Shown in pieces: positions 29,679-54,737 of a stretch of 64,000 nucleotides of DNA (its first letter is position 1; every line of letters begins with the position of its first letter). Under the pieces are notes generated by a model. That model made no database searches. It was not told the DNA's origin and saw only the letters and a list, made by a program, of their open reading frames with translations. This DNA is from an uncultured Planctomycetales bacterium (GTDB lineage: Bacteria; Omnitrophota; Gorgyraeia; Zapsychrales; JANLHA01), in assembly GCA_964474085.1 (NCBI GenBank), contig CAYYRJ010000002.1:70110-134109 (forward strand), given 5' to 3'. Made by a program: the position numbers and the translations under genes.

Positions 29679-29724
29679 GATGAGCTATTTTAATATGACA
29701 AACCTCGAGGAGCGGAGTGCATAA

Positions 29725-30587: not shown

Positions 30588-30875
30588 ATGACAGCGTTGC
30601 GCGGGATTGCCGGACGCTCTTTGACATACAATGCCGAAGATCAGCTTCTTAGTGTCGGGAGTGCGACGTATCAATATGATACGGACGGATTTTTGTCCAA
30701 AAAGACTGACGGCGCTTTAGTCACAACGTACAATTATTCTTCCGCCGGCGAATTATTAAGCGCCTCTTTGCCCGACGGACGGACACTCGAGTATGTGTAT
30801 GACCCGCAAGGTCGACGGATAGCCAAAAAAATGGATAAGTCGGACCGTTTCTCATTAACGCATTGTGGCTGTTGA
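30588..30875 (+). pseudogene. third orphan RHS fragment, truncated after about 85 aa by the IS200-like insertion
   Basis: MTALRGIAGRSLTYNAEDQLLSVGSATYQYDTDGFLSKK...YDPQGRRIAKK matches toxin 1. It then diverges into ...MDKSDRFSLTHCGC-stop, where the conserved element-end sequence begins (30840). Confidence 0.7.
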
Positions 30876-31480
30876 GTTTGCGGCAGAAGTGTCCCCCGTC
30901 ACTAAATTACCCCAACTAAATCTTTATGGAGGTAATTTATGGGACGTATAAAACGAATACATTATGGATCAGCTTGTTATCATGTTTGTGCGCGAGGCAA
31001 TAACCGTCGATACATTTTGGAAAAGAGCGAGGCCAAAGATTATTTTTTGGGAGTAGTTGAGCGATATCAAAAACGGATGAAATTTAAAATTTATGCATTT
31101 GTTATTATATTATGGGAAACCATTTTCATTTATTGCTAGAGGTTGACGAACGTTTTGGGATTTCGAAAGTTATGCAAGGGATATTGCTGTCATTTAGTAT
31201 TTGGTATCGACGACGTGAAAAATATGTTGGGCATGTTTGGCAAGGCAGGTTTACAAGTCGATTGGTGGAAAACGAAATTCAATTAGCTGAAAATATTCGA
31301 TATATTCATGCCAACCCGGTTCGGGCGGGAATGGTTAAAGAGGAGATTGATTACAAATGGAGTTCAGCGCTGTGTTGGGGGGACTATAAAGGAGCAGATA
31401 ATAAAATTTTGGGTTTGGAGATTACGCGCGGGGACATTTCTGACGGAAACATAATAATTGCAACGTGTTGAGAAGAAACG
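30840..31480 (+). mobile_element. IS200/IS605-family (Y1 HuH / RAYT-like) insertion carrying a frameshifted transposase
   Basis: Bounded on the left by TCGGACCGTTTCTCAT...GCAGAAGTGTCCCCC, which is also found at 43198-43260. The transposase has HuH (NHFHLLLEV) and catalytic-Tyr region (RYIHANPVRAG) motifs. Confidence 0.6.
30939..31471 (+). pseudogene. IS200-like Y1 transposase split by a +1/-1 frameshift near 31112-31139
   Basis: ORF 30939-31139 (MGRIKRIHYGSACYHVCARGNNRRYIL...KIYAFVI) and ORF 31112-31471 (MGNHFHLLLEV...YIHANPVRAG) join to give the canonical ...YAFVIMGNHFHLL... HuH neighbourhood. The shift lies at the ttatattatggg run. Confidence 0.65.
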
Positions 31481-31493
31481 GTCCCTACTACCT

Positions 31494-31787
31494 ATGACTA
31501 TTTTACGAGAATTTCAAAAGTGGTATCACAGTTATTGTGATGGTGTATGGGAACATCAGCATGGAATAAGAATTGGCACGATTGACAATCCTGGGTGGAG
31601 TATAGAAATTAATTTAATTGGCACTAAAAATGAAAATGTTGAGCTTGAAAGAATTGAAATTGAAAGAAACGATAATGACTGGATTCATGCTTGGGTTGAA
31701 AATAAAGTTTTTAATGCCGCATGCGGGTCATTAAACTTGGAAGAAGTTTTAGAAATATTTTTGAAATGGGCACCAAGCAAAAAATAA
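31494..31787 (+). CDS. small hypothetical protein (possible orphan immunity protein)
   Basis: About 97 aa from the internal Met (MTILREFQKWYHSYCDGVWEHQHG...). AT-rich and located within the toxin/immunity cassette array. Confidence 0.35.
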   Translation: MTILREFQKWYHSYCDGVWEHQHGIRIGTIDNPGWSIEINLIGTKNENVELERIEIERNDNDWIHAWVENKVFNAACGSLNLEEVLEIFLKWAPSKK

Positions 31788-33660: not shown

Positions 33661-33864
33661 TTATTATACCCACCCTATAGAAGTAGAGTAATCGGGACCG
33701 TGGTAGACTCTAAATTAACTGAACCGTCTTTTCATAAGAATTGGCTCCTTTTGTTTGAGCTCAATTCTACACAATTTGGTCAATTTTGTTAACTGGGGTC
33801 AGTATACAGCTATTACCCCAATGGCTATTTAAAAATATTGTTTAACCTTCCGCTCGAGGTGCCA

Positions 33865-36800
33865 ATGTCTAGATTTTTTAGTTTTACAACAAAATTCTTC
33901 CTGACAACATTTTTTGTTTCTGCTGTTGTGTGTTTTTCGTCAAAACTCGAAGCCGTTGTCCCTGCATTGTCATCACCGACTTTATCGACCGTCACCGCTG
34001 GCGACGCGCAGGTTATCCTTAAGTGGACCTCTGTTACAGATGCGACCAATTATATCGTCCGCTATGGGACGGCTTCAGGTGTTTTTACAAAAGCCGTTAA
34101 TGCCGGCAATGTCACGACCTTTACGGTCAGCGGATTAGCGAATGGGACGGCGTATTATTTTGTTGTCGCCGCAAGCAATGCCTCCGGTAAAAGTGCCAAC
34201 TCTTCTCAAAAAAGCGCCCGACCACAAATTTCGGCGCCGGTTTTAAATTCAGCGATGGGCGGCGTTGGTCAGGTTGTTTTAAATTGGAACAGTGTCCCGA
34301 CGGCAACGAATTATTCGGTCAAATACGGGACCGCCTGGGGAAAATACACAAAAGTTGTGGACGTCGGCGATGTCACGACATTTACTTTGAGTGGTTTATC
34401 CAATGGCACAATGTACTTTTTTGTTGTTTCGGCAAACAATGCCGCTAGCAGCAGTTCAAACTCGGCCCAAAAAATTGCGACACCCCGACTGCCCACCCCC
34501 ACTCTTGTCAGCGTAACCCCTGGGAATATGAAAGCGACTTTGACATGGAGCGGTGTTGTTGGTGCCGAAAGTTATCTGGTCAAATGGAAAACTCCGTCAG
34601 ACCAGTATGCAAAAGCGATGAATATCGGGAATGTGAATTCCTATACGATCAAAGGGTTAAGCAATGGGACGACGTATTATTTTACGGTTGCCGCCGCCGT
34701 TGGAACATTAAGCGTCAGTCTCGATGCGCCGGGCATCAATGCGACACCGAGAATATCTACAGCGACCGCACCTGCGGCGCCGACTTTAAATTCTCCGACG
34801 GTTGGTAATGCCCAAGTGACATTAAACTGGAATGTCCCCAACAATAATGGTTCACCGATTACAGGGTACGATATTCAATACGGGACTCTAGAGAGCGGTT
34901 TGTTTAACAATATCTGGAATGATGACAATGTCCCCGGCGCTGTCATTGGAGGATTGACGAATGGGACCAATTATCAGTTTAGGGTCATTGCCCGCAATGC
35001 GATGGGTAGCAGTTTACCTTCTTCTGCTGTTAGCGCTCAACCTTTGATCTTAGGAACGCCAGCCCAAATGCAATATCCCTCTTTCGGCGCAACAATTTAT
35101 CTTCCTAGCGTCAATTTTTCATGGAACGCTGGTATCGGAGCCGATGCCTACAAAGTTATCGTCGGAACAAGCGTTGGAGCAAATAATTTGGCAGACAGCG
35201 GCGAACTAACCGATTTAAATTACACTGTTTTTAATGTTCCTCTTACCGGCGTCCCCATTTATGTGCGCCTCTCAAGTTTGATTAACGGACTATGGGTTTC
35301 ACAAGAATATCAATATTTAACTTCCGCCAATCGCGTCATTAAGTTTCAAGGGTCAGGTTCAGGCGTCAAAGAATATTATGACCCTTCGGGCTGGTGGCAA
35401 AAGGTGACGTTTAATCTCACCACGGATTTTGATGTTGTTGCACAAAATCCGCGGCTTAACGCCGACGGGATTCATGTCGACCATGATTTGGTGCGAAAAA
35501 CAGGGACACTTCATTTTTGGGGAACCGCCCAGGATTACTTTAACGGCGCATTAAACGAATTCAGTTTTGACCGTTCGCAAAACATCGATATCCAAACCTT
35601 GCAAGGGATTTTTTCATACTCTAAAACACGAATGGATGACGTTTATATTTCGTTTGACGTCTCCCCTTCCTCAACCCTGCCTTATGTCGTAAATCTCCAA
35701 TATGCGGCATTTATCCCGATTGTCCGAGCCAGCATGGTTATGCCTTACCCATGGAATTTAGGATACATCGACAATGCCACGTACGATATTCCTGCAACCG
35801 ACGATTTTCAAAGGCCCTGCGATATTTCAATCGATCTACAAAAGGGTGATCTCGTACCCGGAGACACGGTATCCGTCTATGCTTCAACCTTGGTCAACCC
35901 TTCAGATTCTTTACAATGGCAAATCCTGCCTGGCAAAGACAGCGACGCGCGCGCGAATATCAGCCCATCGGGCGCTAACGCCCAAATGGCGACCATCAGT
36001 GATATCCGAGGAAAAGGAGAACTGGTTTTAAAAATTTCAAACCCCTCGATTGCCGGCTGTCAAAAAGAAATTCCCTTAAATGTCGGTTGCGGCTGTGCCA
36101 GCAGTGAAAACATGTGCACCTTAGACGGGAAATATAATTTGTCGAGCATAGACGTTACCCTCGATCTAGGCCGGACTAAACGAGGAAAATCCGCTGGAAG
36201 CCTTCAGTTAAAGACGGACAAAATTTCGGCCGATAATTCGACGCCTAAAAAACTTAAAGTTTTTGCCGTTGAGAGCACAACAGAAACGCTCTACAGCAGC
36301 AACAATATTTTACGGCAAGTTGTAACGCCGGAAATTTTTGTAGATATTACCCCTGTCGATGCCTACCGCTACGACATCAAATACTATGCTCTAACCGACA
36401 AAGGTACTAAGGTCGGCGGCTTTTATCAAATCGGCGGCGCGGCCATACCTCTAAAAACTTGGCGAATCGAAAACCCTGACCTTTCCTCGACGATTTATAA
36501 TCGTTTAAAAATCACCGAAACCCAAAATGCAATTGTCAAAACGTATGAATACATTTGGAACCAAAACTTAGGCCAATGGCAGCTTAAAACCGGCGATGGT
36601 CTACAAAATGAAAACCTCGTTGAACAAACCATCAACGGCAATCGTGTTGTGACGCGGACATTGAGTGATAGCGCCGGAGTCGTTGCGTCCAAAACCCAGA
36701 CGACATTTAAAGACATTGCCGGGCCCGATGGGATTTCGCAAAATATTATTAAAACAATCGAAGACCCTGCCGGGATCGCCTTAACGACGAACAGCACGTG

Positions 36801-39800
36801 GGACGATGGCGGCAGCGGGCGTTTGTTGTCACAAGTTTTTCCTGACGGCTCTTGGGTCCGATACGAATACGATGCGACTGGCCGAACGACCATGGAAGTC
36901 ACATCGTGGCTGGATTCCCCCGTTGGGACACCTGCAAATTTAGCACGGGCGATTTATTATGATTATTCTCTACAGGATGCTTCGGACGCAAATTTGCCGC
37001 AAGACATTCGCAAACCGCGGCTGATCACCGAAAAGATTCTTGACAAAGTTGTTTCTAAAACGTTTTATGTCTATCAAAAATCCGCCGACAATTATTTGAC
37101 GAACATTATCGAGCGCGCATCGACTCCCGGCGCTGCCTATGGCGCCGCCGCAAATCAGCGGACAAAAACTGTCATGTTTCCTTATGTTTTTGGGTCCGTT
37201 GAAGCATGGCGAGTCCAGAGCGTCACGACTCCCGACGGAAAAATGGACACCTACACCTACAGTTTGGGAACATATACGCCCAACAGCAACCCCAAACTTC
37301 CCGGGACATTTACCGCAGGAGCAGGAACTGATGAACGGACCTCGATTATTCACGGGCTTGCTTCCTCTGCCTTTGGTATTGCCAATAAATCGACGGCAGA
37401 ACAGCACATCAGCAATTTTAAAGGAGAAAAATTATTAGAACTGCGCTACGTCTATAACGGCACAAGCCCGCAATTAGTCGCAACCACCCATTGGCGCTAT
37501 GATGAGTACGGCCATGTCACCAATGTTTATAACTCTGACGGGACAGAAAGCGTAAGCCTGTGGGGATGCTGTAACGCAAAATCCGAAACCGATGTCAACG
37601 GTATCGCGCGTCAATATGTCTATGATGCGCTTGACCGCATTCAAACCGAAATCAAGCTCGCCAGCCCCCACGATATCACAACCAGCTACACCTACGACGG
37701 GGCCGGCCGCCAAAAAACACAAACGATCAGCTCTAACGGTTTGAGCCTTTTGACAAACACGACGTATGACGCCGCCGGACGGCTTAAGACCCAAACCAAT
37801 CAGGCCGGCCATATCAGCACACAAAGCTACAGCACGGACAATCGCACGACAACACTCACACGTCCCGGGGGCGCAACCGAAATTACCACCCAATACATCG
37901 ACGGACAAACCAAAAACATAACCGGCACGGGGAATCTCGCGCAGTTCTATACTTATGGGGTCAACCCAGACGGCTCACGCTGGACGCAGATTAATTTTGC
38001 CAGCGAGACTTCGCCTAACTGGGAAAAGACGACCGTTGACCTTTTGGGCCGCACGATTAAAGTTGAAAAACCAGGATATAATTTATCGACGCTGGTAAGT
38101 GAATATTTTTATAATAATCTCGGACAATTGGTCCGCACAAAAACTCCCGGGCAAGCGGACACTTTATATGAATACGATGCCGTAGGCCAGCTTACCCGAA
38201 GCGGTCTTGACCGCAATGCCAATGGACTTTTGGATTTAAGTTCGATTGATCGGATTACTGATACTGACACTTCTTTTGCATTAATTGGTGGTAACTGGTG
38301 GCAGCAAACTTTACAAAAAGTTTATGCCGCCGACTTTAATACAACAGCGACAACGACGGATACCCAACGCACTCGCCTTAACGGATTGGGAACCGCAAAC
38401 TTAACAGAGGAGTCTGTCACAATCGATATTCATGGGAATCAAACGATTTCGCAAACTTATATTGATCGATTGGCCAAAACCACAACGCGCGTCGTTGATG
38501 ACCCGGATTCAAACATCAACCAAAGCACCGTGACGACCAACGGACTTTTGACGTCCTCCAAAAGTAAAACAGGCACAACCGTTTCGTATGGCTATGACAG
38601 CCTCGAACGCCAAACCGCTGTGACAGACCCTCGGACCGGGACGACAATAACCCAATACAATCCTACAACCGGTCAAGTTGATTGGGTCGAAGACCCCGAA
38701 GGCCGACGGACAAGTTTTTCTTATGACCCGCTTTCGGGACAAAAAATAAGCGAAACAAACGCATTAGGTAAAGTGACCCGTTTTGCTTACAGCACCCGCA
38801 ACGAGCTGACCCACATTTGGGGCGATGTTCCCTACCCTGTGCGCTACCTCTTTGATAATTATGGACGGCTATCGCAGATGCATACTTGGCGCAGTGGAAC
38901 ATCGTGGAATGCGGCGGCTTTTCCAGTAAGTATGGACAGCCAAAAAGATGTCACGACGTGGAACTATCAGGAAGCAACCGGCCTTCTGACCAGCAAAACA
39001 GACGCCGCCGGTCAAAGCACTTCCTATACGTACACGCCCGAAGGCAAACTCAAAACACGCACATGGGCTCGGCTTAACAGCGGAAGTCCAACGGTGACAA
39101 CCTACAACTATACGACCGATACCGGGGAGTTAACCGGCATTGATTACTCGAATTTGACGCCTGATGTGACTTTTGCCTATGATCGCTTGGGTCGGCAAAA
39201 GACTATCACCGACGCTTTAGGTAATCGCACTTTTGGCTACAATACAAAACTCCAACCCGAAACCGAAAACATTACCGGCTTGTATAACAAACTGCTGACC
39301 CGAAGTTACGCGGCCAGCGGTGTTTTGGGACGCTTAAACGGATTTAATACAGGCGCCGGCTACAGCGTTACTTACGGCTATGATGCCGTCGGGCGTTTCA
39401 ATTCTGTCGGCTGGAATGTCAGCGGACAAACGGGCAGCGGCACATATAATTTTGTCCCTAACTCCGACTTATTGCAAAGTTTGACAACCCCGTCGGGGTT
39501 AACGACAAGCTTAAGCTATGAACCTCACCGCGACTTAAAGACGCAGGTCAAAAACCAGTTTGGCGCGGCGACGGTTTCGCAGTACGATTACACTTATGAT
39601 GCGCTGGGCCAAAGAACGTCGGTCAAAAACAGCGGGACGGCTTTCAGCAGTCCGGCGTTTAATAAATTTGCTTATAACTTTCGCAATGAATTAAGCGAAT
39701 CCTCGCGGTATCTGGGCGCGGACGTTTCTCTGCTGACAAGTCCTGTCTTGGGAGAATACCGGCATTTTGATTATGACCCCATCGGCAATCGCGGCAATAT

Positions 39801-41085
39801 CACCGCCGCGGGCAATGCCGGAAGCTACACGACCAACAATCGCAATCAATATCTGATCGCCGCTCTTCCTACCGGCGGGACCAATACATTCACGCATGAC
39901 TCCGACGGGAATCTAACCGAAATTACAGGCGCACAAAACATCGTTTACGCCTACGATGCCGAAAACCGGCTGGTCAGCGCAACTCCCAAAACGCCGGCGG
40001 TCAATGACAAAAAAATCGAGCTTTCCTACGACTATCAAGGCCGGCGGGTGCGAAAGGTTGTTTCGCAGTACAATGGCAGTGCCTGGATAATAGCGGCAGA
40101 CAAGCGTTTTGTTTATGACGGCTGGAACATGATCGAAGAGCAAACCGTTACGCCGGCCTCTTCACGGTTTTATGTTTGGGGATTGGATCTTTCGCAGTCT
40201 TTGCAGGGCGCAGGCGGCATCGGTGGCTTGTTGGCCACAGTCAATGGGACAGCGACGGATCATTTCCTATACGATGGCAACGGAAACGTCGGACAGTTGA
40301 TTAATTCCGTTGGCGGATCACTTGACGCGCAGTATGAATACGACCCGTACGGAAATTTAGTTGCCTCAAACGGATCACTTAGCGCAAGCAATCCATTTCG
40401 TTTTAGCACAAAGTATCTAGATACCGAAACCGGCCTCTACTACTATGGCTATCGCTACTACGATCCCAAAGACGGCAGATGGACGAGTAGAGATCCGATT
40501 GAGGAGGATGGTGGATTAAATCTTTATGCGTTTGTCCATAATGATGCTGTTGATTCTTTTGATTTATATGGACTTTATCGCGATTGGTTGCCTATCTTGG
40601 CTGACCGCGGACGGAAAGTTCACGCGAAATTAAAAGAATACGGTGACACATATCGAAAAGACCTTAGATGGGACATGTCTTTAAAAGAACTAGGCATCAT
40701 TGATGCGCTTGATAAACCTGATATCTTAGATACCGATGACCGTCTTATTTGGGAACTTAAGCCCGGTTCTCATCGAGCTCCAATTTTTTATAAAAGAGAT
40801 GATGCTCAAATGCAAAGATATATGGACAAAACCTGTTATCGATTAGGTGATCCCAATTTAATATTTTCACAAAAAACTTATATCGGAGATGTCAGTGATA
40901 CTTGGGGGACATGGAATATTTATGTTTCTCCCGGACGGCTTGGCTTTCTCTATTATGATGTAACACGCAAACAACAAAAAAGGCGAGCAGGCAACTCTGA
41001 CTGGAGCGGCAACCCAACAGAGAATTTTATGCCACCGATAATGAACCCTGTGTTACCCTTGGGCCCAACTCCAATAATATTCTAA
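33865..41085 (+). CDS. second giant secreted YD-repeat / RHS polymorphic toxin (2,406 aa from ATG): signal peptide, about 5 FN3-like, unassigned beta-rich region, YD repeats, RHS core, PD-ExK-like C-terminal tip
   Basis: The N-terminus and about 60 nt of upstream leader are almost identical to toxin 1 (MSRFFSFTTKFFLT...). Repeated W..V.DATNY.V.YGT FN3-like units. YD repeats (YEYDATGRTT, YTYDGAGRQKT, YDAAGRLKT...). RHS core ...YYDPKDGRWTSRDPI...DLYGL (ends 40575). The tail has KPDILDTDDRLIWELKPG. Confidence 0.9.
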   Translation: MSRFFSFTTKFFLTTFFVSAVVCFSSKLEAVVPALSSPTLSTVTAGDAQVILKWTSVTDATNYIVRYGTASGVFTKAVNAGNVTTFTVSGLANGTAYYFVVAASNASGKSANSSQKSARPQISAPVLNSAMGGVGQVVLNWNSVPTATNYSVKYGTAWGKYTKVVDVGDVTTFTLSGLSNGTMYFFVVSANNAASSSSNSAQKIATPRLPTPTLVSVTPGNMKATLTWSGVVGAESYLVKWKTPSDQYAKAMNIGNVNSYTIKGLSNGTTYYFTVAAAVGTLSVSLDAPGINATPRISTATAPAAPTLNSPTVGNAQVTLNWNVPNNNGSPITGYDIQYGTLESGLFNNIWNDDNVPGAVIGGLTNGTNYQFRVIARNAMGSSLPSSAVSAQPLILGTPAQMQYPSFGATIYLPSVNFSWNAGIGADAYKVIVGTSVGANNLADSGELTDLNYTVFNVPLTGVPIYVRLSSLINGLWVSQEYQYLTSANRVIKFQGSGSGVKEYYDPSGWWQKVTFNLTTDFDVVAQNPRLNADGIHVDHDLVRKTGTLHFWGTAQDYFNGALNEFSFDRSQNIDIQTLQGIFSYSKTRMDDVYISFDVSPSSTLPYVVNLQYAAFIPIVRASMVMPYPWNLGYIDNATYDIPATDDFQRPCDISIDLQKGDLVPGDTVSVYASTLVNPSDSLQWQILPGKDSDARANISPSGANAQMATISDIRGKGELVLKISNPSIAGCQKEIPLNVGCGCASSENMCTLDGKYNLSSIDVTLDLGRTKRGKSAGSLQLKTDKISADNSTPKKLKVFAVESTTETLYSSNNILRQVVTPEIFVDITPVDAYRYDIKYYALTDKGTKVGGFYQIGGAAIPLKTWRIENPDLSSTIYNRLKITETQNAIVKTYEYIWNQNLGQWQLKTGDGLQNENLVEQTINGNRVVTRTLSDSAGVVASKTQTTFKDIAGPDGISQNIIKTIEDPAGIALTTNSTWDDGGSGRLLSQVFPDGSWVRYEYDATGRTTMEVTSWLDSPVGTPANLARAIYYDYSLQDASDANLPQDIRKPRLITEKILDKVVSKTFYVYQKSADNYLTNIIERASTPGAAYGAAANQRTKTVMFPYVFGSVEAWRVQSVTTPDGKMDTYTYSLGTYTPNSNPKLPGTFTAGAGTDERTSIIHGLASSAFGIANKSTAEQHISNFKGEKLLELRYVYNGTSPQLVATTHWRYDEYGHVTNVYNSDGTESVSLWGCCNAKSETDVNGIARQYVYDALDRIQTEIKLASPHDITTSYTYDGAGRQKTQTISSNGLSLLTNTTYDAAGRLKTQTNQAGHISTQSYSTDNRTTTLTRPGGATEITTQYIDGQTKNITGTGNLAQFYTYGVNPDGSRWTQINFASETSPNWEKTTVDLLGRTIKVEKPGYNLSTLVSEYFYNNLGQLVRTKTPGQADTLYEYDAVGQLTRSGLDRNANGLLDLSSIDRITDTDTSFALIGGNWWQQTLQKVYAADFNTTATTTDTQRTRLNGLGTANLTEESVTIDIHGNQTISQTYIDRLAKTTTRVVDDPDSNINQSTVTTNGLLTSSKSKTGTTVSYGYDSLERQTAVTDPRTGTTITQYNPTTGQVDWVEDPEGRRTSFSYDPLSGQKISETNALGKVTRFAYSTRNELTHIWGDVPYPVRYLFDNYGRLSQMHTWRSGTSWNAAAFPVSMDSQKDVTTWNYQEATGLLTSKTDAAGQSTSYTYTPEGKLKTRTWARLNSGSPTVTTYNYTTDTGELTGIDYSNLTPDVTFAYDRLGRQKTITDALGNRTFGYNTKLQPETENITGLYNKLLTRSYAASGVLGRLNGFNTGAGYSVTYGYDAVGRFNSVGWNVSGQTGSGTYNFVPNSDLLQSLTTPSGLTTSLSYEPHRDLKTQVKNQFGAATVSQYDYTYDALGQRTSVKNSGTAFSSPAFNKFAYNFRNELSESSRYLGADVSLLTSPVLGEYRHFDYDPIGNRGNITAAGNAGSYTTNNRNQYLIAALPTGGTNTFTHDSDGNLTEITGAQNIVYAYDAENRLVSATPKTPAVNDKKIELSYDYQGRRVRKVVSQYNGSAWIIAADKRFVYDGWNMIEEQTVTPASSRFYVWGLDLSQSLQGAGGIGGLLATVNGTATDHFLYDGNGNVGQLINSVGGSLDAQYEYDPYGNLVASNGSLSASNPFRFSTKYLDTETGLYYYGYRYYDPKDGRWTSRDPIEEDGGLNLYAFVHNDAVDSFDLYGLYRDWLPILADRGRKVHAKLKEYGDTYRKDLRWDMSLKELGIIDALDKPDILDTDDRLIWELKPGSHRAPIFYKRDDAQMQRYMDKTCYRLGDPNLIFSQKTYIGDVSDTWGTWNIYVSPGRLGFLYYDVTRKQQKRRAGNSDWSGNPTENFMPPIMNPVLPLGPTPIIF

Positions 41086-41103
41086 ATTAACAGGCAGTTC
41101 TAT

Positions 41104-41805
41104 ATGATCAACCGCGAAATATTATACAAAAAGATGGAATTCTTGGTCGACGACTTATTAAAAGAAAATCCTCCTTTTGATAAAGCTTCACAAAATCCTA
41201 CACTTTTGAATTTTTACTCTACATACATTAACTATTACAGCCAATTAACTGAAAATCAACGAAAGGACATTATCAAAGCACAGAGATGTAGCGCAAAATG
41301 GCATATCCATAATTTTCTTTTTGGATTCAAAAGGGATCAACCATATCCCTACCCAGAATTAAAAAAAATTATTACTGATTTTAGAATTTGGTATCAAACA
41401 AAAGAAAGTATAATCCCGGGGTCTGTAACAACTACAGAAAAGTTTGATGCTTTAAATATCTTAAAGGAAAAGATGGCAAAGCATTTTCCTCAATTCTCTA
41501 TGAGCAAAACATTAAAAATACCGGGGTTTTATGTATTCTCATTTAATGTCTTTGAAGATACGGATTTGATTATTGCTTTTGATCGAGGAAAATACGGAGG
41601 CTCTCTGAGTATATATATTAGTTTAAATAAACCAGAAATGTTTCTTAATATATCCAATTTTTACGGATACGGTTGTTGTTGTTTCTCTTATAACACAAAA
41701 AAAGAATTTCTCCGCCGTTTAGATTTAACATTCGAAGTTCTTGACTTTTTTTATCCGAAGTTTCATAAAGCAATTAAAGAAGCTTACGAAGAGTCGGATA
41801 AATAG
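41104..41805 (+). CDS. putative cognate immunity protein for toxin 2 (hypothetical)
   Basis: Starts 19 nt after the toxin stop. AT-rich. No recognisable domain. Confidence 0.45.
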   Translation: MINREILYKKMEFLVDDLLKENPPFDKASQNPTLLNFYSTYINYYSQLTENQRKDIIKAQRCSAKWHIHNFLFGFKRDQPYPYPELKKIITDFRIWYQTKESIIPGSVTTTEKFDALNILKEKMAKHFPQFSMSKTLKIPGFYVFSFNVFEDTDLIIAFDRGKYGGSLSIYISLNKPEMFLNISNFYGYGCCCFSYNTKKEFLRRLDLTFEVLDFFYPKFHKAIKEAYEESDK

Positions 41806-42079
41806 GGCGAAAAACGAAACACTTCCAAACGTACCGGGTTCAGAATAAGTTTTAAAGAAAATGGCGTTGCTAGTAAAAAACGGAATACTTCCAAACGTGC
41901 CGTATTCAGAATATGACACTCGCGAGACGGAGCTCAATTAGTTTCGGTGTTGATCACCAAATGCGTCAACAAGGCTATCGTGCATTTTTAGGAGTTAAAG
42001 AACCGTATAGGCAAATTGTTGATGAGGCGTTGCTAAAACAAAGTTAGACCCGGCACGTTCAGAAATGTTCCGGTTTCCT

Positions 42080-42255
42080 TAAAAGCCTCCGTTCTGGAGG
42101 ATTTAGATTGTAAATCCCCCAAACCTGCCTTTGGCAGGCAAGCCCCCTTTCTTGCAGACTGGGCCAGATGAAGTGGCAATCTGAAAAGTGGATTCCCGCT
42201 TTCGCGGGAATGACAAAAAAGACAATGTCATCCCTGCGAAAGCAGGGATCCAAGG
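42080..42255 (+). repeat. hairpin-dense repeat, copy A (about 176 bp)
   Basis: About 98% identical to the core of copy B. Contains cctccgttctggagg, ggaggatttagattgtaaatccccc, cctgcctttggcagg, attcccgctttcgcgggaat and tccctgcgaaagcaggga stem-loops, including GAAA/TTTC tetraloops. Confidence 0.85.
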
Positions 42256-42525
42256 TCTACGTGATGTATGATTTAAAAATTTTATGTTCTGGGCTTTTAG
42301 CTAAAAGACGTTTTATCAAAATTAAGCATAGCTATAATTTATAAAAATATTCCAGGAATCCTGGGAATACTTTTGCATGTTAAAAGATATGATTGGGTTG
42401 CATAAAACGTCTTATTCAATTCGCATAATAGCAACTGAAGGCGGAGTTCTTGTCGGCAAAAATACCCCTGCCGACCTAAAAGACAAAACCTTAATATTTG
42501 AAACAATCGAGAGGAGAATGCCTTA

Positions 42526-43185
42526 ATGAGGGAAGTCACTCGGCTAAGCAATCAATTCCTTCTCGAAATTGCAAAACATGTCGGCAAATATGATTTTTCA
42601 AATAAAATCAAAGAGCAATCTTTCGAGAAAAAAACAGATTTTGGTAAAGTGTGCATGCACTTTTCCTTTATTAAATTTTCTGAATATTTTGGCATAACTC
42701 TCGATGTTGGAATACGATTTGACGATTTAGAAAATCTTATCCATGAAACAAATAATCTTATTCCCCAAAGAAGAAAAAAAGAAACATATTCTATGGGTTG
42801 TGAATTAGGAAATCTATCTCAAGGAAAACCTAAATGCTGGGCAATCGAAAAAGATGATGACATTATTCCAGTTGTTTTAGAAATTATTTCTTTTTTTGAA
42901 AGAGTAGGAATACCTTATCTAGAAAAATACTCTGATATGCGCAATGCAAAAGAAGCTTTGTCAGGTGATGGCCCCTCTGCATGGCTTTATAGTGCAATTG
43001 ATAATGAACGAGCAAAAAGAGCCGTTGGCTTGACTTTTTTGTTAGATAATATGGACGCAGTATTGGCTTTAGCAAAAATCAAAGAGCAATATTTAAAAGA
43101 AAGAAATGATTTTGGGTTAGCTTCTTTTCAATCCTTTGTGAAGTTTTTAATAGAAAAAGACAAGCAGGATAAACAACAAGGTTAA
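42526..43185 (+). CDS. hypothetical protein (219 aa) carried between repeat copies A and B
   Basis: AT-rich ORF with no recognisable motif. Confidence 0.4.
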   Translation: MREVTRLSNQFLLEIAKHVGKYDFSNKIKEQSFEKKTDFGKVCMHFSFIKFSEYFGITLDVGIRFDDLENLIHETNNLIPQRRKKETYSMGCELGNLSQGKPKCWAIEKDDDIIPVVLEIISFFERVGIPYLEKYSDMRNAKEALSGDGPSAWLYSAIDNERAKRAVGLTFLLDNMDAVLALAKIKEQYLKERNDFGLASFQSFVKFLIEKDKQDKQQG

Positions 43186-43296
43186 TTCGAGATTAATTCG
43201 GACCGTTTTTACATAACCTGTTGATTTTAGCTTAAAGTCCAGCAGAAGTGTCCCCGAAATCGTTTTTAGTTCTTTGAAAAAGTAAAAAGTATTTTC

Positions 43297-43510
43297 AAAA
43301 GCCTCCGCTCTGGAGGATTTAGATTGTAAATCCCCCAAACCTGCCTTTGGCAGGCGAGCCCCCTTTCTTGCAGACTGGGCCAGATGAAGTGGCAATCTGA
43401 AAAGTGGATTCCCGCTTTCGCGGGAATGACAAAATTTTCGCGGGAATGACAGAAATATGAGGGAATGACAAAAGAGGTAGTGTCATCCCTGCGAAAGCAG
43501 GGATCCAAGG
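43297..43510 (+). repeat. hairpin-dense repeat, copy B (about 214 bp, with internal triplication of a (c)gggaatgaca unit)
   Basis: Direct-orientation copy of A. Preceded at 43198-43277 by the junction motifs TCGGACCGTTTTT, AGCAGAAGTGTCCCCGAAA and AGTTCTTTGA. Confidence 0.85.
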
Positions 43511-43652
43511 CTTAAAAATTGCTAAAACATTTCCGGAAGTGTCGGGTTCAAGCTGAAGGTGGCTTTTTCATAGATGTTCCGATGAGCAGTTCTGATGAGC
43601 AGCGCAAATGCCTGCCGAAAAGCAAACGTGGATGTTTGGGAAGTAAATTGAA

Positions 43653-44456
43653 TTAATACACGGCTTCTATATTTTGTCGAATAATCCTTGAATCAAAAAG
43701 GTTTAACTCACTCTTATCTTCTAAAAACCTCTCGACATCTTTTTTAACCTTCTCAAAATCAATTCGCTCAATATTCTCAAGTAAATACGTCTTTAGATTG
43801 TCTTGATTAATACCCAAATCAACTCCCTGCGTTTGCTTAATTGCATTATTAAGCAACACAAAATTCGGTTTTACTTTCTTAGTTAAATACCAGACAAAAT
43901 CGTAATAATCACGGCCTTTGATAAACTTACGGTAAAAACAGGCATGTAGTTTTCCGGCATATAATGACGGGAGATCATAATGAGTAACCGTAAAATTAAA
44001 AAACTTGCCCACAAAAGTATTTGCCAAATTCCAGCCTAAAGGGGGATTCGTGTCAATTTCAAATTTGATCGAAAACTTCTGACTTTGCATCGGAGATAAC
44101 CCAAGAGCTTTCAGTAAACCCGTAAAACCCATCATCATACTATGAACGTTAGTTTCAGTTCTTGGTTTAGCTTCAAACGGCAGATTATATAGCGCAAACG
44201 ACCTCGAAAGTTCTTCATAAATTTCAGAAAAATTGTATTTCCTTTTATCACTCAAAGAAAAATCTAAATCTTCCGAAAACCTTTTGATGTTATATAAAAT
44301 CCTCAAAGATGTTCCACCCCAAAAAGCAACCTGATCAAAGAATTTCTTTTCATCCATAATTTTCAAACACAAAATTTGTAAAAACTCACGGATTACATTG
44401 AGTTTTTGATCATTAGACATCCCCTCTTTAAACTGTTGCTTAATCACATCAATCAT
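43653..44456 (-). CDS. AbiEii/AbiGii-family nucleotidyltransferase toxin (type IV TA / abortive infection)
   Basis: DUF1814-type N-terminus ...VIREFLQILCLKIM...FWGGTSLRILYNIKRFSEDLDFSL. Confidence 0.75.
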   Translation of the reverse strand: MIDVIKQQFKEGMSNDQKLNVIREFLQILCLKIMDEKKFFDQVAFWGGTSLRILYNIKRFSEDLDFSLSDKRKYNFSEIYEELSRSFALYNLPFEAKPRTETNVHSMMMGFTGLLKALGLSPMQSQKFSIKFEIDTNPPLGWNLANTFVGKFFNFTVTHYDLPSLYAGKLHACFYRKFIKGRDYYDFVWYLTKKVKPNFVLLNNAIKQTQGVDLGINQDNLKTYLLENIERIDFEKVKKDVERFLEDKSELNLFDSRIIRQNIEAVY

Positions 44457-45088
44457 AATCTCAACTCCTTAACCCAATCGATAAGGTCTTTAAGAACCTT
44501 CATAAGTTTTTTATTATTAAATAATTTACCAAGTTCTAATAATTTTTTTGTATCAATATCTTCAATATTCTGGAACCGATAAGACTGCTCCAAAACTTCT
44601 CTAACATTATTGTTAAATTGCGCCAAATTAAAATATAAAAAATCAACGATCGCCTTTTCTGGTTCGGCGATAAAAAATGAAACCTTATTATCAGCAACCC
44701 TCCTAAAACCCCTAAAAGCTCCAGGCTTAACATGCTGATATGAAAAGACTCCCAATGATGTACTAAAAGACATTGTTTTTCGAGTCGTCACGGAGGTCTT
44801 ATCTGCGACAGCTTCAGGAATAAATCCATAATACCCTAGGGCATATTCCAAACTCAAATAAGACGGCTCATAAAGCATCCCCGCAATGGTGCTTGGATCC
44901 ACATCAACTTTGCGATCATTAGTATTAAGAATATAAAATCCCTTGCGCAAGCTAATAAGCAGACCTTTTTTTTGCCACCGATGCATTTGATTGCGCATAA
45001 CTTGCGGATCTGCAATAGTGCGAATAACATCCTTGCTCTTAATAAGCGGACGATTTTGAAACTGAGCTTTAAATTCTAAAAAATTCAT
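44453..45088 (-). CDS. AbiEi-family antitoxin / transcriptional regulator
   Basis: Overlaps the toxin gene by 4 nt. The N-terminal domain (...VMRNQMHRWQKKGLLISLRKGFYIL) is typical of AbiEi_4. Confidence 0.65.
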   Translation of the reverse strand: MNFLEFKAQFQNRPLIKSKDVIRTIADPQVMRNQMHRWQKKGLLISLRKGFYILNTNDRKVDVDPSTIAGMLYEPSYLSLEYALGYYGFIPEAVADKTSVTTRKTMSFSTSLGVFSYQHVKPGAFRGFRRVADNKVSFFIAEPEKAIVDFLYFNLAQFNNNVREVLEQSYRFQNIEDIDTKKLLELGKLFNNKKLMKVLKDLIDWVKELRL

Positions 45089-53272: not shown

Positions 53273-54162
53273 TTAGATACTGTTGATGTGCTCTTCAATG
53301 ACCCGCAATTCTTCTATGACGCGTTCAAACGTTGGAGACTCTTCAAAAAACATTTGTTGCATCTGACGATAATCTTTTTTTAATTGGCTTATTTGATCAT
53401 CGCGAGGCAATAGCCGTAAAGTTCCCGGCTTTGCAGTGTCATAATGCGCCCAGTTCGCTTTAAAAAATAAAGTTTTATGCTCCGCAACAGACTTAAGCAA
53501 TGGGATGCTTTTCAAAGCGCGTTTATAAATAGGCGAATCCGTCATCGCGTATATATCGTAATAATGCCGGGACATCCGTAGTGGTACATTTTTCTCAGAC
53601 GGATAATGATATATCATGTGCAAAATCGTCGCTTTCTCCCAAAAAGTCCGCTCTGCGGCTAAAACTCGCACGCAAGCCCCTTTGATGACCATCTGCTTTG
53701 AAACATTCGCGATATACGGAAAAATGGTTGCGGTTTCGACCGGCCAATGATCTGATCGCGCACCAAATTCAATTTTGACTGATGAGCGTACATAGCTCTG
53801 CACATTACTTGTCAGGGCATATTGCTTTCTTCTTTATTCGGCTCAATCTCTTTGGAATTCAACAAAAAAGGCCGCTCTATTGAAATGTCAATGTCCTCCG
53901 AAAAACGTTTGATCACGTTATAACACTTTGAGAGGGACGTCCCTCCTTTAAAGGTTAAATGCTCGCCTATTTGCGATAATGAAAAAAGAATTTTGAGTAT
54001 CCAGCAAATCCAAAAATCCTTTTCAACCAATTGCGGCAAGATACCAAGTTTACTGGCCATCGTATCGAAATAAGGAATTTTCTCTGAGACAGGCAAGACT
54101 GCAAATCGATCCATTATTCCACCATTCTTTTGAATATTGCGCCGATCCAGGCCGGAGCGCAT
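53273..54162 (-). pseudogene. second AbiEii/AbiGii-family nucleotidyltransferase, split into two frames at about 53803-53812
   Basis: The N-terminal ORF (53812-54162) contains [26 protein letters not shown]. The C-terminal ORF (53273-53803) continues the family in another frame. Confidence 0.6.
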
Positions 54163-54737
54163 GTAATATCCTTAAGAAGTTGTTTTTTGTCGGCATCACT
54201 CAACCGCGCTTTAAGCTTATCGACGATATCATCATCCACATTAACTTTTCCTAAATGGCGCAAAGCCTGAATGACTAAACCACTAATACGGCCCGCGGCC
54301 GCCATATTCTTGGGGGTCGTTCTTTTAAAGATGATGCGCTGGTTATATATAGTCAACTTCCGATTAGAACCATCCGTCAAAAAAATAATCTTGGCGGGAA
54401 CCTGATCGGTCAAACCTAGAAGATTGGCGGCATAAGCACCCGAGGGCTGAAGCCTTAACTTATGTTGTCCGGCAAACGCCTTACCAATTTGCTCATAATT
54501 TGGTACCAGATCTCCAAGCGTAGGATGGCGCTTAGGGTAGTCATAAAGTCCCAGAGAAAGCCGACGGATAGTCCCCTGCTTTGTTAACCTCTCAAGGGCT
54601 TTCCTCACGGCAGAATGACTCCCAAGGTCAAAAAATTGGTTTGGCGTAAATACCCAACCCCTCCCATGACCGTATATTCTACTAACAACAATATCATCAG
54701 TATGTTGCATACGATAGCCTCTACTATCCTGTCGCAA
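54114..54737 (-). CDS. AbiEi-family antitoxin (second copy)
   Basis: ...[40 protein letters not shown] is the typical AbiEi N-terminal domain. Confidence 0.6.

What the first reader, a model, noticed from the sequence alone, without database searches (positions are those of the whole stretch)
42030..43555. Cargo gene bracketed by two ~98%-identical hairpin-dense repeats (candidate MITE-like or structured-RNA element)
Copies A (42080-42255) and B (43297-43510) are direct repeats. They are packed with stem-loops (cctccgttctggagg, ggaggatttagattgtaaatccccc, cctgcctttggcagg, attcccgctttcgcgggaat and tccctgcgaaagcaggga), some with GAAA/TTTC tetraloops. Copy B carries a tandem triplication of a gggaatgaca unit. 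Outside the pair are similar short sequences (left ttgctaaaacaaagttagacccggcacgttcagaaatgttccgg at 42030-42073; right ttgctaaaacatttccggaagtgtcgggttcaag at 43518-43552). Related cgggttcagaata or cgtattcagaata units occur twice at 41843-41915. Between the repeats sits a 219-aa AT-rich ORF. Three readings are possible: a composite mobile unit carrying a cargo gene, paired sRNA genes, or REP/REPIN-type elements connected to the RAYT-like transposase at 30939. The spurious ORFs over the repeats translate to ...VIPAKAGIH..., the usual signature of this kind of GNRA hairpin.
Basis: seen in the sequence. Interest (0 to 1): 0.65.

Follow-up and report, generated by a model that had tools for sequence, protein, structure and literature searches.

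The report
Ssn-type hairpin repeats bracketing immunity gene
Two near-identical 175/214-base repeats flank a spare toxin-immunity gene. Each repeat ends in a pair of hairpins of a known, widespread kind (the Neisseria dRS3/NTS motif cut by Ssn single-strand nucleases). This makes them a new example of a known repeat type, not a new transposon or RNA gene.

Summary
A (42081-42255) and B (43297-43510) are direct repeats: 2 mismatches in the first 138 nt, and a 39-nt tandem half-hairpin expansion in B. They are strongly structured, and other assemblies of the same population carry them.

- **Cargo:** it is not arbitrary. 42426-43185 is a 3' stump of an Rhs nuclease toxin plus its intact immunity gene, an orphan cassette at the end of an Rhs array in a probable Candidatus Omnitrophota genome.
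- **Hairpins:** the 3' third of each repeat holds two head-to-head hairpins. One matches the Neisseria NTS/dRS3 consensus at 26 of 28 positions. The other differs by two compensatory base-pair changes. In other contigs both types directly flank ssn (GIY-YIG) genes.
- **5' module:** the 107-nt 5' part was found nowhere else.
- **MITE reading:** there are no terminal inverted repeats, no target-site duplication and no further copies.
- **RNA reading:** there is no Rfam match.
- **RAYT link:** the RAYT at 30939 is genuine but frameshifted. It owns a different 55-nt repeat, with one solo copy (43200-43255) beside B.

Best reading: a NIME-like mosaic repeat that carries Ssn target hairpins and provides homology for gain or loss of the cassette. 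No ssn gene lies in the window, so the mechanism is inferred.

The parts
42081..42255 (+). Repeat copy A (175 nt). It has a 107-nt 5' module, then two head-to-head Ssn-type hairpins.
43297..43510 (+). Repeat copy B (214 nt). Same layout as A, plus a 39-nt tandem expansion in the spacer between the hairpins.
   Evidence: L034 and L001 confirm it
42081..42187 (+). 5' module of A (B equivalent 43297-43403). Small hairpins CCTCCGTTCTGGAGG, GGAGGATTTAGATTGTAAATCCCCC, CCTGCCTTTGGCAGG and CAGAT..ATCTG. Sequence of unknown origin.
   Evidence: No match in the genome, metagenome and viral scans, in plasmids or phages, or in 120 metagenome loci by blastn. Covariance model R1 finds only A and B in 0.71 Mb.
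42188..42215 (-). Canonical NTS/dRS3-type hairpin in A: TGTCATTCCCGCGAAAGCGGGAATCCAC. It matches the NTS consensus at 26 of 28 positions and matches the SRM pattern.
   Evidence: The exact 26-mer is in 21 unrelated IMG/VR contigs and flanks a GIY-YIG gene in L007.
42226..42253 (+). Variant Ssn-type hairpin in A: TGTCATCCCTGCGAAAGCAGGGATCCAA. It has two compensatory pair changes relative to the canonical one.
   Evidence: Its 21-nt core is in more than 120 metagenome contigs. The variant hairpin lies 11-24 nt from ssn-like genes in L082, L104, L122 and L153.
43404..43431 (-). Canonical NTS/dRS3-type hairpin in B.
43416..43473 (+). Tandem array of three 20-nt units in B. On the minus strand these are 5' half-NTS copies (TGTCATTCCCGCGAAA).
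   Evidence: (family D2)
43481..43508 (+). Variant Ssn-type hairpin in B.
42426..42526 (+). 3' stump of an Rhs toxin C-terminal nuclease domain (..IIATEGGVLVGKNTPADLKDKTLIFETIERRMP*).
   Evidence: It aligns with the C-terminal end of full Rhs toxins upstream of cargo homologues in L027-L032. DNA homology to L025/L026 starts at 42426. The toxin domain is weakly NERD-like.
42526..43185 (+). Orphan Rhs immunity gene (219 aa), the 'cargo'.
   Evidence: 14 homologues and no Pfam family. Homologues overlap the stop codon of Rhs toxins. AF2 pLDDT 94, with no PDB fold match.
43200..43255 (+). Solo copy of the RAYT-associated 55/56-nt unit (GGACCGTTT..CAGAAGTGTCCCC), between the cargo stop and B.
41810..41913 (+). 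Two copies of a 38-nt small intergenic unit (41810-41847 and 41876-41913).
   Evidence: family D5. A homologue lies in relative L050 at 2392-2418.
42048..42076 (-). Inverted copy of the same small unit, just left of A. It contains CAGAAATGTTCCGG, which resembles the 3' arm of the RAYT unit.
   Evidence: (pair I2)
43519..43552 (+). Degenerate small unit right of B (TTGCTAAAACATTTCCGGAAGTGTCGGGTTCAAG).
   Evidence: comparison by eye with the units at 41810-41913
30842..31484 (+). Frameshifted RAYT gene (30939-31471) flanked by inverted 55-nt units (30842-30896 on +, 31430-31484 on -). This is a different repeat system from A/B.
33838..41805 (+). Main Rhs toxin (33838-41085) and its putative immunity gene (41104-41805), upstream of A.
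43653..45088 (-). AbiEii/AbiEi toxin-antitoxin pair, convergent on B.
   Evidence: It is absent at this site in the syntenic relative L047.

Best explanation
A and B are two copies of a mosaic intergenic repeat. Each has a 107-nt module of unknown origin joined to a head-to-head pair of Ssn-related hairpins (dRS3/NTS type). They sit at the end of an Rhs toxin array in a probable Omnitrophota genome and bracket an orphan cassette made of a toxin stump and its immunity gene.

Shown:
- The identity of the hairpins.
- Both hairpin types lie next to ssn (GIY-YIG) genes in other contigs.
- The cargo is an orphan Rhs immunity cassette.
- The pairing of A with this cassette was not seen in the three related contigs that carry it.

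Inferred:
- The hairpins act as single-stranded DNA sites for an Ssn-type nuclease encoded elsewhere in the genome. This would limit or shape incoming or replicating single strands, as shown for NTS-gene-NTS DNA in Neisseria meningitidis.
- The 138-nt stretch of near-identical direct repeat gives RecA-type recombination a substrate to delete, duplicate or capture the cassette, as proposed for Neisseria NIME arrays next to variable genes.
- The near-identity (2 mismatches in 138 nt) points to a recent duplication or gene conversion.
- The half-hairpin expansion in B points to local instability at the hairpin.
For: Hairpin identity:
- 42188-42215 and 43404-43431 (minus strand) match the published SRM pattern. 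These are the only 2 hits in the window, against 0.13 in random sequence.
- They match the NTS consensus CGTCATTCCCGCGMAVGCGGGAATCYRG at 26 of 28 positions.
- They contain an exact dRS3, ATTCCC-N8-GGGAAT.

Link to ssn genes:
- The exact 26-mer lies in 21 unrelated viral contigs, with no shared sequence in the 70-80 nt shown on each side except for two near-duplicate contigs.
- It flanks a GIY-YIG gene on both sides in L007.
- The variant hairpin keeps its stem through two compensatory pair changes.
- The variant's 21-nt core is in more than 120 metagenome contigs of 30-72% GC.
- The variant hairpin lies 11-24 nt from ssn-like genes in four loci.
- It pairs with the canonical type in 33 of 119 cases.
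- L171 carries the same head-to-head doublet (68 nt, 94% identity).

Cargo:
- Homologues sit immediately after Rhs toxins, and the window retains only the last ~30 codons of that toxin.

Variable site:
- In relative L047, homology runs from 43167 to 43291 and stops 5 nt before B. It resumes at 45331.
- Contigs with 96% and 81% identical cargo homologues have no A upstream.

Sequence pattern:
- Differences between A and B fall only in a small-hairpin loop, in sequence between the small hairpins, and in the spacer between the two Ssn-type hairpins.

Published mechanism:
- SsnA binds and cuts NTS only as ssDNA, not as RNA or dsDNA. NTS-gene-NTS DNA transforms less well when SsnA is present.
- NIME arrays are proposed recombination substrates next to variable genes.
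Against: - No ssn homologue lies in the 64-kb window (tblastn best E 3.4; regex). The rest of the genome is not available.
- Only 2 canonical and 2 variant hairpins occur in 64 kb, and none in 17 loci (about 130 kb) from related MAGs. This lineage may not maintain an active Ssn/SRM system, and the hairpins may have arrived by transfer.
- The window's head-to-head order is the rare arrangement: 3 of 39 close pairs.
- The 107-nt module is flanked by a dRS3 on one side only and has no other known copy, unlike Neisseria RS families.
- There is no direct evidence of recombination. The L001 path that looks like an A x B product can equally be a de Bruijn loop artefact.
Confidence: 0.55

Rival explanations
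1. The element works at the RNA level as a 3'-flank module. Each copy lies downstream of a plus-strand immunity gene (A after 41104-41805, B after the cargo), and B also lies downstream of the convergent abiEii gene. The hairpins would terminate transcription or protect the mRNA 3' end, as REP/BIME elements do in E. coli. Alternatively, each copy is a small RNA gene.
For: - The first hairpin of each copy is called terminator-like on the + strand (42086-42100 and 43302-43316).
- Both strands fold far better than shuffles.
- The position after two successive genes fits a 3'-flank module.
- Rfam's only related hit is the Francisella sRNA FtrB, which contains the same hairpin (21.9 bits).
Against: - Nothing reaches an Rfam gathering score. 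The FtrB hit is far below its threshold of 66 and covers only the hairpin.
- No promoter-like site lies next to either copy.
- The T-tails are poor (ATTTAGATTG).
- SsnA does not interact with NTS RNA.
- Folding z-scores are expected for any palindrome-rich DNA.
- No homologues exist on which to test covariation of the 5' module.
Confidence: 0.2
2. A and B are copies of a non-autonomous transposable element (MITE-like). Alternatively, A-cargo-B is a composite transposon carrying the immunity gene.
For: - Two near-identical copies with sharp borders.
- GC is 50% in a 33% GC neighbourhood.
- An exact 11-mer, TTGCTAAAACA, lies outside both outer borders.
- Short-read contigs break at 42027 and 42312, outside the repeat itself.
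Against: - The ends of A and B are not inverted repeats (the first 20 nt and last 20 nt do not match; one search lists no such pair).
- The flanks of each copy share no duplication.
- The 11-mers lie 40 and 8 nt from the borders. They belong to a small-unit family also present at 41863-41913 (family D9).
- No transposase lies between or next to the copies.
- No third copy appears in the window, in GTDB representative genomes, in JGI metagenomes, in IMG/VR, in plasmids or in phages.
Confidence: 0.08
3. A and B are REP/REPIN elements mobilised by the RAYT transposase at 30939.
For: - The gene is a bona fide RAYT (NF047646, 95 bits against a cutoff of 80), flanked by inverted repeats.
- A solo copy of its repeat lies 41 nt upstream of B.
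- A related arm motif lies 7 nt upstream of A.
Against: - The RAYT-flanking 55-nt unit shares no similarity with A or B.
- In 17 MAG loci the unit occurs with RAYT homologues or as gene-less inverted doublets, never with NTS hairpins.
- The RAYT here is frameshifted.
- The A/B hairpins are tied to a different enzyme family in other contigs.
Confidence: 0.04
4. A plain local segmental duplication with no function of its own. One intergenic stretch that happened to contain two acquired hairpins was copied when the orphan cassette was inserted or rearranged.
For: - Only two copies are known, both at this locus, and they are 99% identical.
- The site is a rearrangement hotspot.
Against: - This does not explain why the conserved, enzyme-linked hairpins are intact in both copies while all substitutions fall outside their stems. 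With six substitutions, however, that pattern is weak evidence.
- This reading is compatible with the best explanation as the origin of the pair.
Confidence: 0.13

Closest known systems
Ssn-related motifs (SRM), including the Neisseria Transformation Sequence (NTS) and dRS3, the targets of Ssn GIY-YIG single-strand DNases (Nat Commun 2025, PMC11893778)
   Same: - The canonical hairpin matches NTS at 26 of 28 positions and satisfies the SRM pattern.
- GTC upstream of the palindrome and C after it are both present. These are the positions reported as critical for cleavage and binding.
- The hairpins lie outside genes and bracket a gene, as in the NTS-gene-NTS layout.
- In other contigs, identical hairpins flank ssn genes (L007, L082, L104, L122, L153).
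   Different: - No ssn gene lies in the window.
- Only four hairpins occur in 64 kb.
- The host is a probable Omnitrophota, not a proteobacterium.
- The two types sit head-to-head with a 10-nt spacer, a rare arrangement.
- The hairpins are embedded in a longer repeat with a unique 107-nt module.
Neisserial intergenic mosaic elements (NIMEs): RS elements of ~50-150 bp flanked by dRS3 (PMC1797815)
   Same: - A mosaic of a ~100-nt unit plus dRS3-type hairpins.
- GC-rich hairpins in a lower-GC setting.
- A location beside highly variable genes, including polymorphic-toxin loci with silent cassettes.
- The proposed role as a recombination substrate.
   Different: - The 107-nt unit has a dRS3 on one side only.
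- It belongs to no multi-copy family found so far.
- There are only two copies.
- NIMEs were described as specific to Neisseria.
REP/REPIN elements with RAYT transposases
   Same: - Short extragenic palindromes that occur as inverted doublets.
- An enzyme gene that is itself flanked by the repeats.
- Gene-less doublets elsewhere. I saw the same pattern for Ssn-type hairpins (V+ about 22 nt C-).
   Different: - The partner enzyme of the A/B hairpins is a GIY-YIG nuclease, not a Y1 transposase.
- The real RAYT system in this window uses an unrelated 55-nt unit.
Orphan toxin/immunity cassettes downstream of Rhs, CDI and MafB genes
   Same: A toxin C-terminal stump plus an intact immunity gene downstream of a full Rhs toxin-immunity pair. 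Other orphan modules lie in the same array (28593-31787).
   Different: Orphan modules are usually preceded by a piece of the Rhs core, which allows recombination with the main gene. Here the stump is only ~30 codons and is preceded by repeat A.

Membership tests
Ssn-related motif (SRM / NTS / dRS3) | Sequence fits the published SRM pattern HGTCWYN(0-2)YYVSBRHN(0-5)WNVSBRGN(0-2)RNCYNB and the NTS consensus | tested here: met
   42188-42215(-) and 43404-43431(-) match the pattern. These are the only 2 hits, against 0.13 in random sequence. They match NTS at 26 of 28 positions and contain an exact dRS3. The variant hairpin (42226-42253, 43481-43508) does not fit the strict pattern (22 of 28 to NTS).
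Ssn-related motif (SRM / NTS / dRS3) | Forms a hairpin, with GTC just upstream of the palindrome and C just after it | tested here: met
   Both types read GTC-A-stem-GAAA-stem-T-C. The variant keeps all 8 pairs through two compensatory changes. The DNA fold of the doublet is -22.7 kcal/mol, z -7.2.
Ssn-related motif (SRM / NTS / dRS3) | Spatial association with an ssn (cd10448 GIY-YIG) gene | tested here: inconclusive
   Not met in the window: tblastn with the L007 Ssn gives a best E of 3.4. Met in other contigs for both hairpin types. The rest of the source genome is not available.
Ssn-related motif (SRM / NTS / dRS3) | Many copies per genome | not testable with these tools
   There are 2 canonical and 2 variant copies in 64 kb, and none in 17 loci from related MAGs. 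The source genome was not found in the genome collection.
Ssn-related motif (SRM / NTS / dRS3) | Bound and cut by Ssn as single-stranded DNA only | not testable with these tools
   This needs a biochemical assay. The published result is for Neisseria and Wolbachia homologues.
Neisserial intergenic mosaic element (NIME) | RS unit flanked on both sides by dRS3 inverted repeats | tested here: not met
   No dRS3 or SRM lies upstream of the 107-nt module in A or B.
Neisserial intergenic mosaic element (NIME) | RS units belong to multi-copy families arranged in arrays | tested here: not met
   Only two copies were found in all the searches run.
MITE / composite transposon | Terminal inverted repeats | tested here: not met
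   The first 20 nt (AAAAGCCTCCGTTCTGGAGG) and the reverse complement of the last 20 nt (CCTTGGATCCCTGCTTTCGC) do not match. No such pair appears.
MITE / composite transposon | Target-site duplication at the borders | tested here: not met
   The flanks of A (..tttcctt / tctacgtg..) and of B (..gtattttc / cttaaaaa..) share nothing. The outer 11-mers lie 40 and 8 nt away from the borders and belong to a small-unit family.
MITE / composite transposon | Dispersed copies | tested here: inconclusive
   None were found, but the complete source genome could not be searched.
REP/REPIN-RAYT system | RAYT gene flanked by the repeat in inverted orientation | tested here: not met
   This is met for the 55-nt unit (30842-30896 on +, 31430-31484 on -; RAYT NF047646 at 95 bits). 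It is not met for A/B, which share no similarity with that unit.
Structured RNA family (Rfam) | Match at gathering score, or covariation across homologues | tested here: not met
   There are 0 gathering-score hits in the window. The best hit is FtrB at 21.9 bits against a threshold of 66. There are no homologues of the 5' module on which to test covariation.
Orphan Rhs toxin-immunity cassette (the cargo) | Immunity gene homologous to genes that directly follow Rhs toxins, preceded by a truncated piece of the matching toxin domain | tested here: met

The most novel reading that the evidence does not exclude
A-cassette-B may be a hairpin-bounded cassette that moves as single-stranded DNA.

- In each repeat the two Ssn-type hairpins face each other across a 10-nt spacer. 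If the N. meningitidis geometry holds (a cut 3 nt upstream of the 28-nt NTS), the predicted cuts on the two strands fall 4 nt apart in that spacer: 42218/42219 on the minus strand and 42222/42223 on the plus strand.
- Cutting at A and at B on either strand would release the same unit of about 1.25 kb, carrying the immunity gene.
- The half-NTS tandem expansion in B's spacer and the B-5'/A-3' junction in contig L001 would then be scars and products of such events.

This would be a new way for immunity genes to move. In gene-less form (the V+ about 22 nt C- doublets), it would be a GIY-YIG counterpart of REPINs.
Probability: 0.08. Interest if true: 0.8.

Novelty: new member of a known kind. Interest (0 to 1): 0.38.

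Why it matters
- It places Ssn-type (dRS3/NTS) hairpins in a candidate-phylum genome, at the variable end of a polymorphic-toxin array. Neisseria shows the same association between these hairpins and variable or silent-cassette loci.
- If the hairpins and direct repeats do govern gain and loss of orphan immunity genes, this locus would be a simple test case for how Ssn nucleases shape gene flow outside Neisseria.
- For annotation, hairpin-dense repeats that give VIPAKAGI/FRGND-type spurious ORFs should be read as Ssn-related motifs, not as genes, MITEs or new RNAs.
- Two unrelated repeat-enzyme systems (RAYT and Ssn) can sit side by side in one intergenic region.

Tried and rejected
- **Rfam.** At gathering score, over the whole window: nothing. 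Permissive search over 41700-43800: only sub-threshold noise and FtrB through the shared hairpin.
- **tRNA/tmRNA scan.** None.
- **Exact-pattern scans for the 5' module.** GGAGGATTTAGATTGTAAATCCCCC in GTDB genomes, GGGCCAGATGAAGTGGCAATCTG in JGI metagenomes, and two sub-motifs in IMG/VR: all zero. The 26-nt variant-hairpin pattern also gave zero in IMG/VR.
- **blastn of the 5' module.** No match against plasmids or phages.
- **Covariance model of the 5' module.** Searched over 0.71 Mb of fetched loci: only A and B.
- **Spurious ORFs over the repeat.** Two exact-protein look-ups found nothing on record. A protein homology search with the 64-aa repeat ORF found no candidate.
- **ssn gene in the window.** Both the regex and tblastn searches were negative.
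- **Alternative alleles.** Exact-protein look-ups of neighbouring ORFs returned only the same two samples. The MetX protein is not on record.
- **Fold search of the cargo model.** No significant match in the PDB. The AlphaFold database library was unavailable.
- **First literature search.** A search on peptide strings returned only irrelevant AGMT papers.
- **Supplementary tables of the Ssn paper.** Not held.
- **Integron attC reading.** Considered and dropped. I saw no RYYYAAC/GTTRRRY cores at the borders and no integrase in the ORFs I annotated. I did not test this formally.
Full report
**1. The observation**

- The repeat finder aligns 42081-42218 with 43297-43434 (138 nt, 99%) and 42206-42255 with 43461-43510 (50 nt, 92%).
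- The only differences are at 42092 and 42140 and at four positions in 42219-42225.
- B is longer because a 20-nt unit, TTTCGCGGGAATGACAAAAA, is present three times (Tandem Repeats Finder, 43416-43473).
- Each named hairpin occurs exactly twice in the 64-kb window, where shuffles predict 0.00-0.04 occurrences.
- Both strands of A fold about 25 kcal/mol better than dinucleotide shuffles (z about -5.6). B gives z -4.7.

The structure is not an artefact of a single assembly. Contigs from two other read sets of the same population cover it. L001 covers A and the first 138 nt of B. L034 covers B from 43454, including the third unit. L002 and L033 cover the flanks.

**2. The setting and the cargo**

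The region is the downstream end of an Rhs polymorphic-toxin array.
- Rhs genes lie at 21029-27652 and 33838-41085.
- An orphan Rhs C-terminal fragment with a Tox-REase-7 domain lies at 28593-29678.
- An Rhs fragment lies at 30588-30875.
- An Imm53 immunity gene lies at 31458-31787.
- Several small genes without a known family sit where immunity genes would be expected.

The 219-aa "cargo" has no Pfam or NCBIfam match and only 14 homologues among 5.8 billion clustered proteins.
- Where those homologues lie on longer contigs, they start at the stop codon of an Rhs toxin. In L027 this is a 1968-aa Rhs protein, and L028-L032 are similar.
- The last ~30 codons of those toxins (..IATEGGVIVGKNAP..IERRVP*) are homologous to window 42426-42526 (..IIATEGGVLVGKNTPADLKDKTLIFETIERRMP*).
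- DNA homology to the closest relatives starts at 42426 for L025/L026 (85%) and at 42444 for L024 (96%).
- The toxin domain is weakly NERD-like, that is, a PD-(D/E)xK-type nuclease.

So 42426-43185 is an orphan cassette: a toxin stump plus an intact immunity gene. An AlphaFold model of the protein is confident (pLDDT 94.2), but it has no significant Foldseek match in the PDB.

**3. The hairpins at the 3' end of each repeat**

On the minus strand, 42188-42215 reads TGTCATTCCCGCGAAAGCGGGAATCCAC. A full-text search for this sequence led to the 2025 description of the Ssn nuclease family (PMC11893778). That paper reports the following.
- The Neisseria repeat dRS3 (ATTCCC-N8-GGGAAT) is often part of a 28-nt "Neisseria Transformation Sequence", CGTCATTCCCGCGMAVGCGGGAATCYRG. 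The paper generalises this as the Ssn-related motif (SRM).
- SsnA, a 94-aa GIY-YIG protein, binds the motif and cuts a few nucleotides upstream of it. It does so only on single-stranded DNA and only in one orientation. It does not act on RNA or duplex DNA.
- The C after the palindrome matters most for binding. The three bases before the palindrome matter most for cutting.
- ssn genes are typically flanked by the motif.
- DNA with an NTS-gene-NTS layout transforms less well when SsnA is present.

The window hairpin matches NTS at 26 of 28 positions. With its twin in B, it is the only match to the published SRM pattern in the window (2 hits against 0.13 expected).

The second hairpin (42226-42253 on the plus strand, TGTCATCCCTGCGAAAGCAGGGATCCAA) has the same flanks and loop. 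Two of its stem pairs are changed on both sides: T-A to C-G, and C-G to T-A.

Both types are widespread and linked to ssn genes.
- The canonical 26-mer occurs exactly in 21 IMG/VR contigs. Apart from two near-duplicate contigs, these share nothing in the 70-80 nt shown on each side.
- In L007 it lies on both sides of a GIY-YIG gene.
- The 21-nt core of the variant hairpin occurs in more than 120 metagenome contigs with GC from 30 to 72%.
- The variant hairpin lies 11-24 nt from ssn-like genes in L082, L104, L122 and L153.

In those metagenome loci the two types are often paired.
- In 33 of 119 cases the pair is convergent, usually with a gap of about 22 nt and no gene between. This is the same relation that REPINs have to RAYT genes.
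- The window's order, head-to-head with a 10-nt spacer, is rare (3 of 39 close pairs).
- It recurs almost unchanged in L171 (68 nt, 94% identity).

**4. The 5' two-thirds of each repeat**

The 107 nt upstream of the hairpin pair were found nowhere else.
- Exact scans of GTDB species representatives, JGI metagenomes and IMG/VR found nothing.
- blastn against plasmids and phages found nothing.
- blastn against the 120 metagenome loci that carry the variant hairpin found nothing.
- A protein search with the longest ORF over the repeat found nothing.
- A covariance model run over 0.71 Mb of fetched loci, including syntenic relatives, found only A and B.

The origin of this module is unknown, and covariation cannot be assessed for it.

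**5. The transposase and the short flanking sequences**

The ORFs at 30939-31139 and 31112-31471 are two halves of one frameshifted gene. After repair, it matches NCBIfam "REP-associated tyrosine transposase" at 95 bits (cutoff 80) and Pfam Y1_Tnp.

The gene is flanked by inverted copies of a 55-nt unit, GGACCGTTTCT..CAGAARTGTCCCC (30842-30896 on plus, 31430-31484 on minus). A third copy lies at 43200-43255, between the cargo stop codon and B.

A gapped scan for this unit in GTDB genomes found 17 loci.
- Fifteen are from Candidatus Omnitrophota MAGs and two from MAGs labelled Planctomycetales.
- The unit is always 55-56 nt long.
- In four loci the unit abuts a RAYT homologue (44-52% identity).
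- In five loci two units lie tail to tail with no gene between them. The example folded, from L038, forms a long hairpin (z -5.6).
- None of these loci contains an NTS hairpin.

This is a true RAYT/REPIN-type system, but it is a different family from A/B. The two share no similarity.

The scan also suggests the host is an Omnitrophota-like bacterium of the PVC group. L047 and L050 are syntenic with the window at 80-92% DNA identity.

Copies lie at 41810-41847 and 41876-41913, with an inverted copy at 42048-42076 and a degenerate copy at 43519-43552. The copy left of A contains CAGAAATGTTCCGG, which resembles the 3' arm of the RAYT unit. The shared 11-mer is part of that family and lies 40 and 8 nt from the repeat borders, so it is not a clean target-site duplication.

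**6. Comparison with relatives**

- In L047, homology with the window runs from the end of the cargo gene through the 55-nt unit, from 43167 to 43291. It stops 5 nt before B.
- An Rhs fragment and a different small gene pair follow in L047. Homology resumes at 45331. B and the AbiE pair are therefore absent at this site in that relative.
- Contigs carrying cargo homologues at 96% and 81% identity have other sequence upstream and no A.

The pairing of A and B with this cassette was therefore not seen in any related contig. Given 2 mismatches in 138 nt, it is also recent.

**7. How it most likely works**

Shown:
- What the hairpins are.
- Both hairpin types lie next to ssn genes in other contigs.
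- What the cargo is.
- The site varies between relatives.
- A and B differ only in a small-hairpin loop, in sequence between the small hairpins, and in the spacer between the two Ssn-type hairpins.

Inferred:
- An Ssn-type nuclease encoded elsewhere in the genome recognises the hairpins when the DNA is single-stranded.
- The 138-nt near-identical direct repeats let homologous recombination delete, duplicate or capture the cassette, as proposed for Neisseria NIME arrays beside variable genes (PMC1797815).

Evidence against:
- No ssn gene lies in the window.
- The hairpins are few here and absent from the related loci I could read.

Rival readings, each treated in its own section of this report:
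- An RNA-level role as a terminator or stabiliser after each immunity gene.
- A plain local duplication with no function of its own.
- A MITE or composite transposon.
- Mobilisation by the RAYT.

**8. Unexplained**

- Contig L001 runs from B's 5' part (with B's two SNPs) into A's 3' tail and then on to 42315. A circle or tandem duplication made by A x B recombination would give this junction. A de Bruijn loop artefact at 3.5x coverage would give it too.
- Short-read contigs end at 42027 (L172) and start at 42312 (L002). These points lie further out than sharing between A and B alone would predict. This may reflect a second allele or simply low coverage.

**9. Verdict**

The element is a new example of a known kind: an Ssn-related, dRS3/NTS-bearing mosaic repeat. 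It sits in an unusual host and setting, and part of it has no known origin. Interest is moderate.

Noticed in passing
window 30842-31484; loci L035-L051: A frameshifted RAYT gene (NF047646, 95 bits) is flanked by inverted 55-nt units, GGACCGTTTCT..CAGAARTGTCCCC. The same unit, always 55-56 nt, occurs in 17 loci, mostly from Omnitrophota MAGs. It lies either next to RAYT homologues or as gene-less tail-to-tail doublets of about 125 nt. This looks like a REPIN-type family in a candidate phylum.
   Followed up: partly
window 30476-31490 versus L050 926-1704 and 2422-2776: The RAYT unit interrupts an Rhs fragment at about 30830. In relative L050 the same fragment continues into the Rhs core. The right-hand unit overlaps the start of an Imm53 immunity gene (31458-31787). 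The insertion therefore appears to have removed the toxin part of an orphan module.
   Followed up: partly
metagenome loci L052-L171: The two Ssn-type hairpin variants are paired in 33 of 119 cases, convergent, usually with a gap of about 22 nt and no gene between. The same layout with an ssn gene inside occurs in L082 and L007. These look like gene-less derivatives of an ssn unit, analogous to REPINs.
   Followed up: partly
window 43416-43473: The tandem units in B are 5' halves of the NTS (on the minus strand, TGTCATTCCCGCGAAA) plus about 4 nt upstream. That upstream stretch is where N. meningitidis SsnA would be expected to cut. Whether the expansion reflects breakage and repair there is untested.
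   Followed up: no
L001 2931-3165; window 42027 and 42312-42315: One contig joins B's 5' part to A's 3' tail and the sequence after A. Contigs from two samples end or start near 42027 and 42312. Possible causes are a circle, a tandem duplication, a second allele or an assembly artefact.
   Followed up: partly
window 42526-43185: The orphan immunity protein belongs to a rare family (14 homologues, no Pfam). It has a confident predicted fold (pLDDT 94.2, pTM 0.88) and no significant PDB match. Its partner toxin domain is weakly NERD-like.
   Followed up: partly
window 28522-28561, 30454-30592; L050 870-960 and 3905-4060: Recurring junction modules lie between orphan Rhs cassettes: AATTCCGGKGACAC after immunity genes, AGTTCTTTGAYATTYTTT before Rhs fragments, and the sequence GATTGCTTCGTCGC..CTCGCAATGACA (30556-30592), which starts GTCAT on the minus strand like an Ssn-type motif. 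A truncated AGTTCTTTGA copy lies at 43269, just before B.
   Followed up: partly
window 42256-42425: A 170-nt AT-rich stretch between A and the toxin stump has no homology to the related contigs. It contains a 29-nt imperfect inverted repeat (42305-42333 / 42385-42413) and a terminator-like hairpin at 42350-42366.
   Followed up: no
window 53273-54737: A second, shorter AbiEii-like ORF (176 aa, matching only the C-terminal part of the family profile) lies next to a DUF6088 gene. This is in addition to the full AbiEii/AbiEi pair at 43653-45088.
   Followed up: no
window 19290-20941: An exosortase (EpsH) gene and a DUF3485 gene lie immediately upstream of the first Rhs gene (21029-27652).
   Followed up: no
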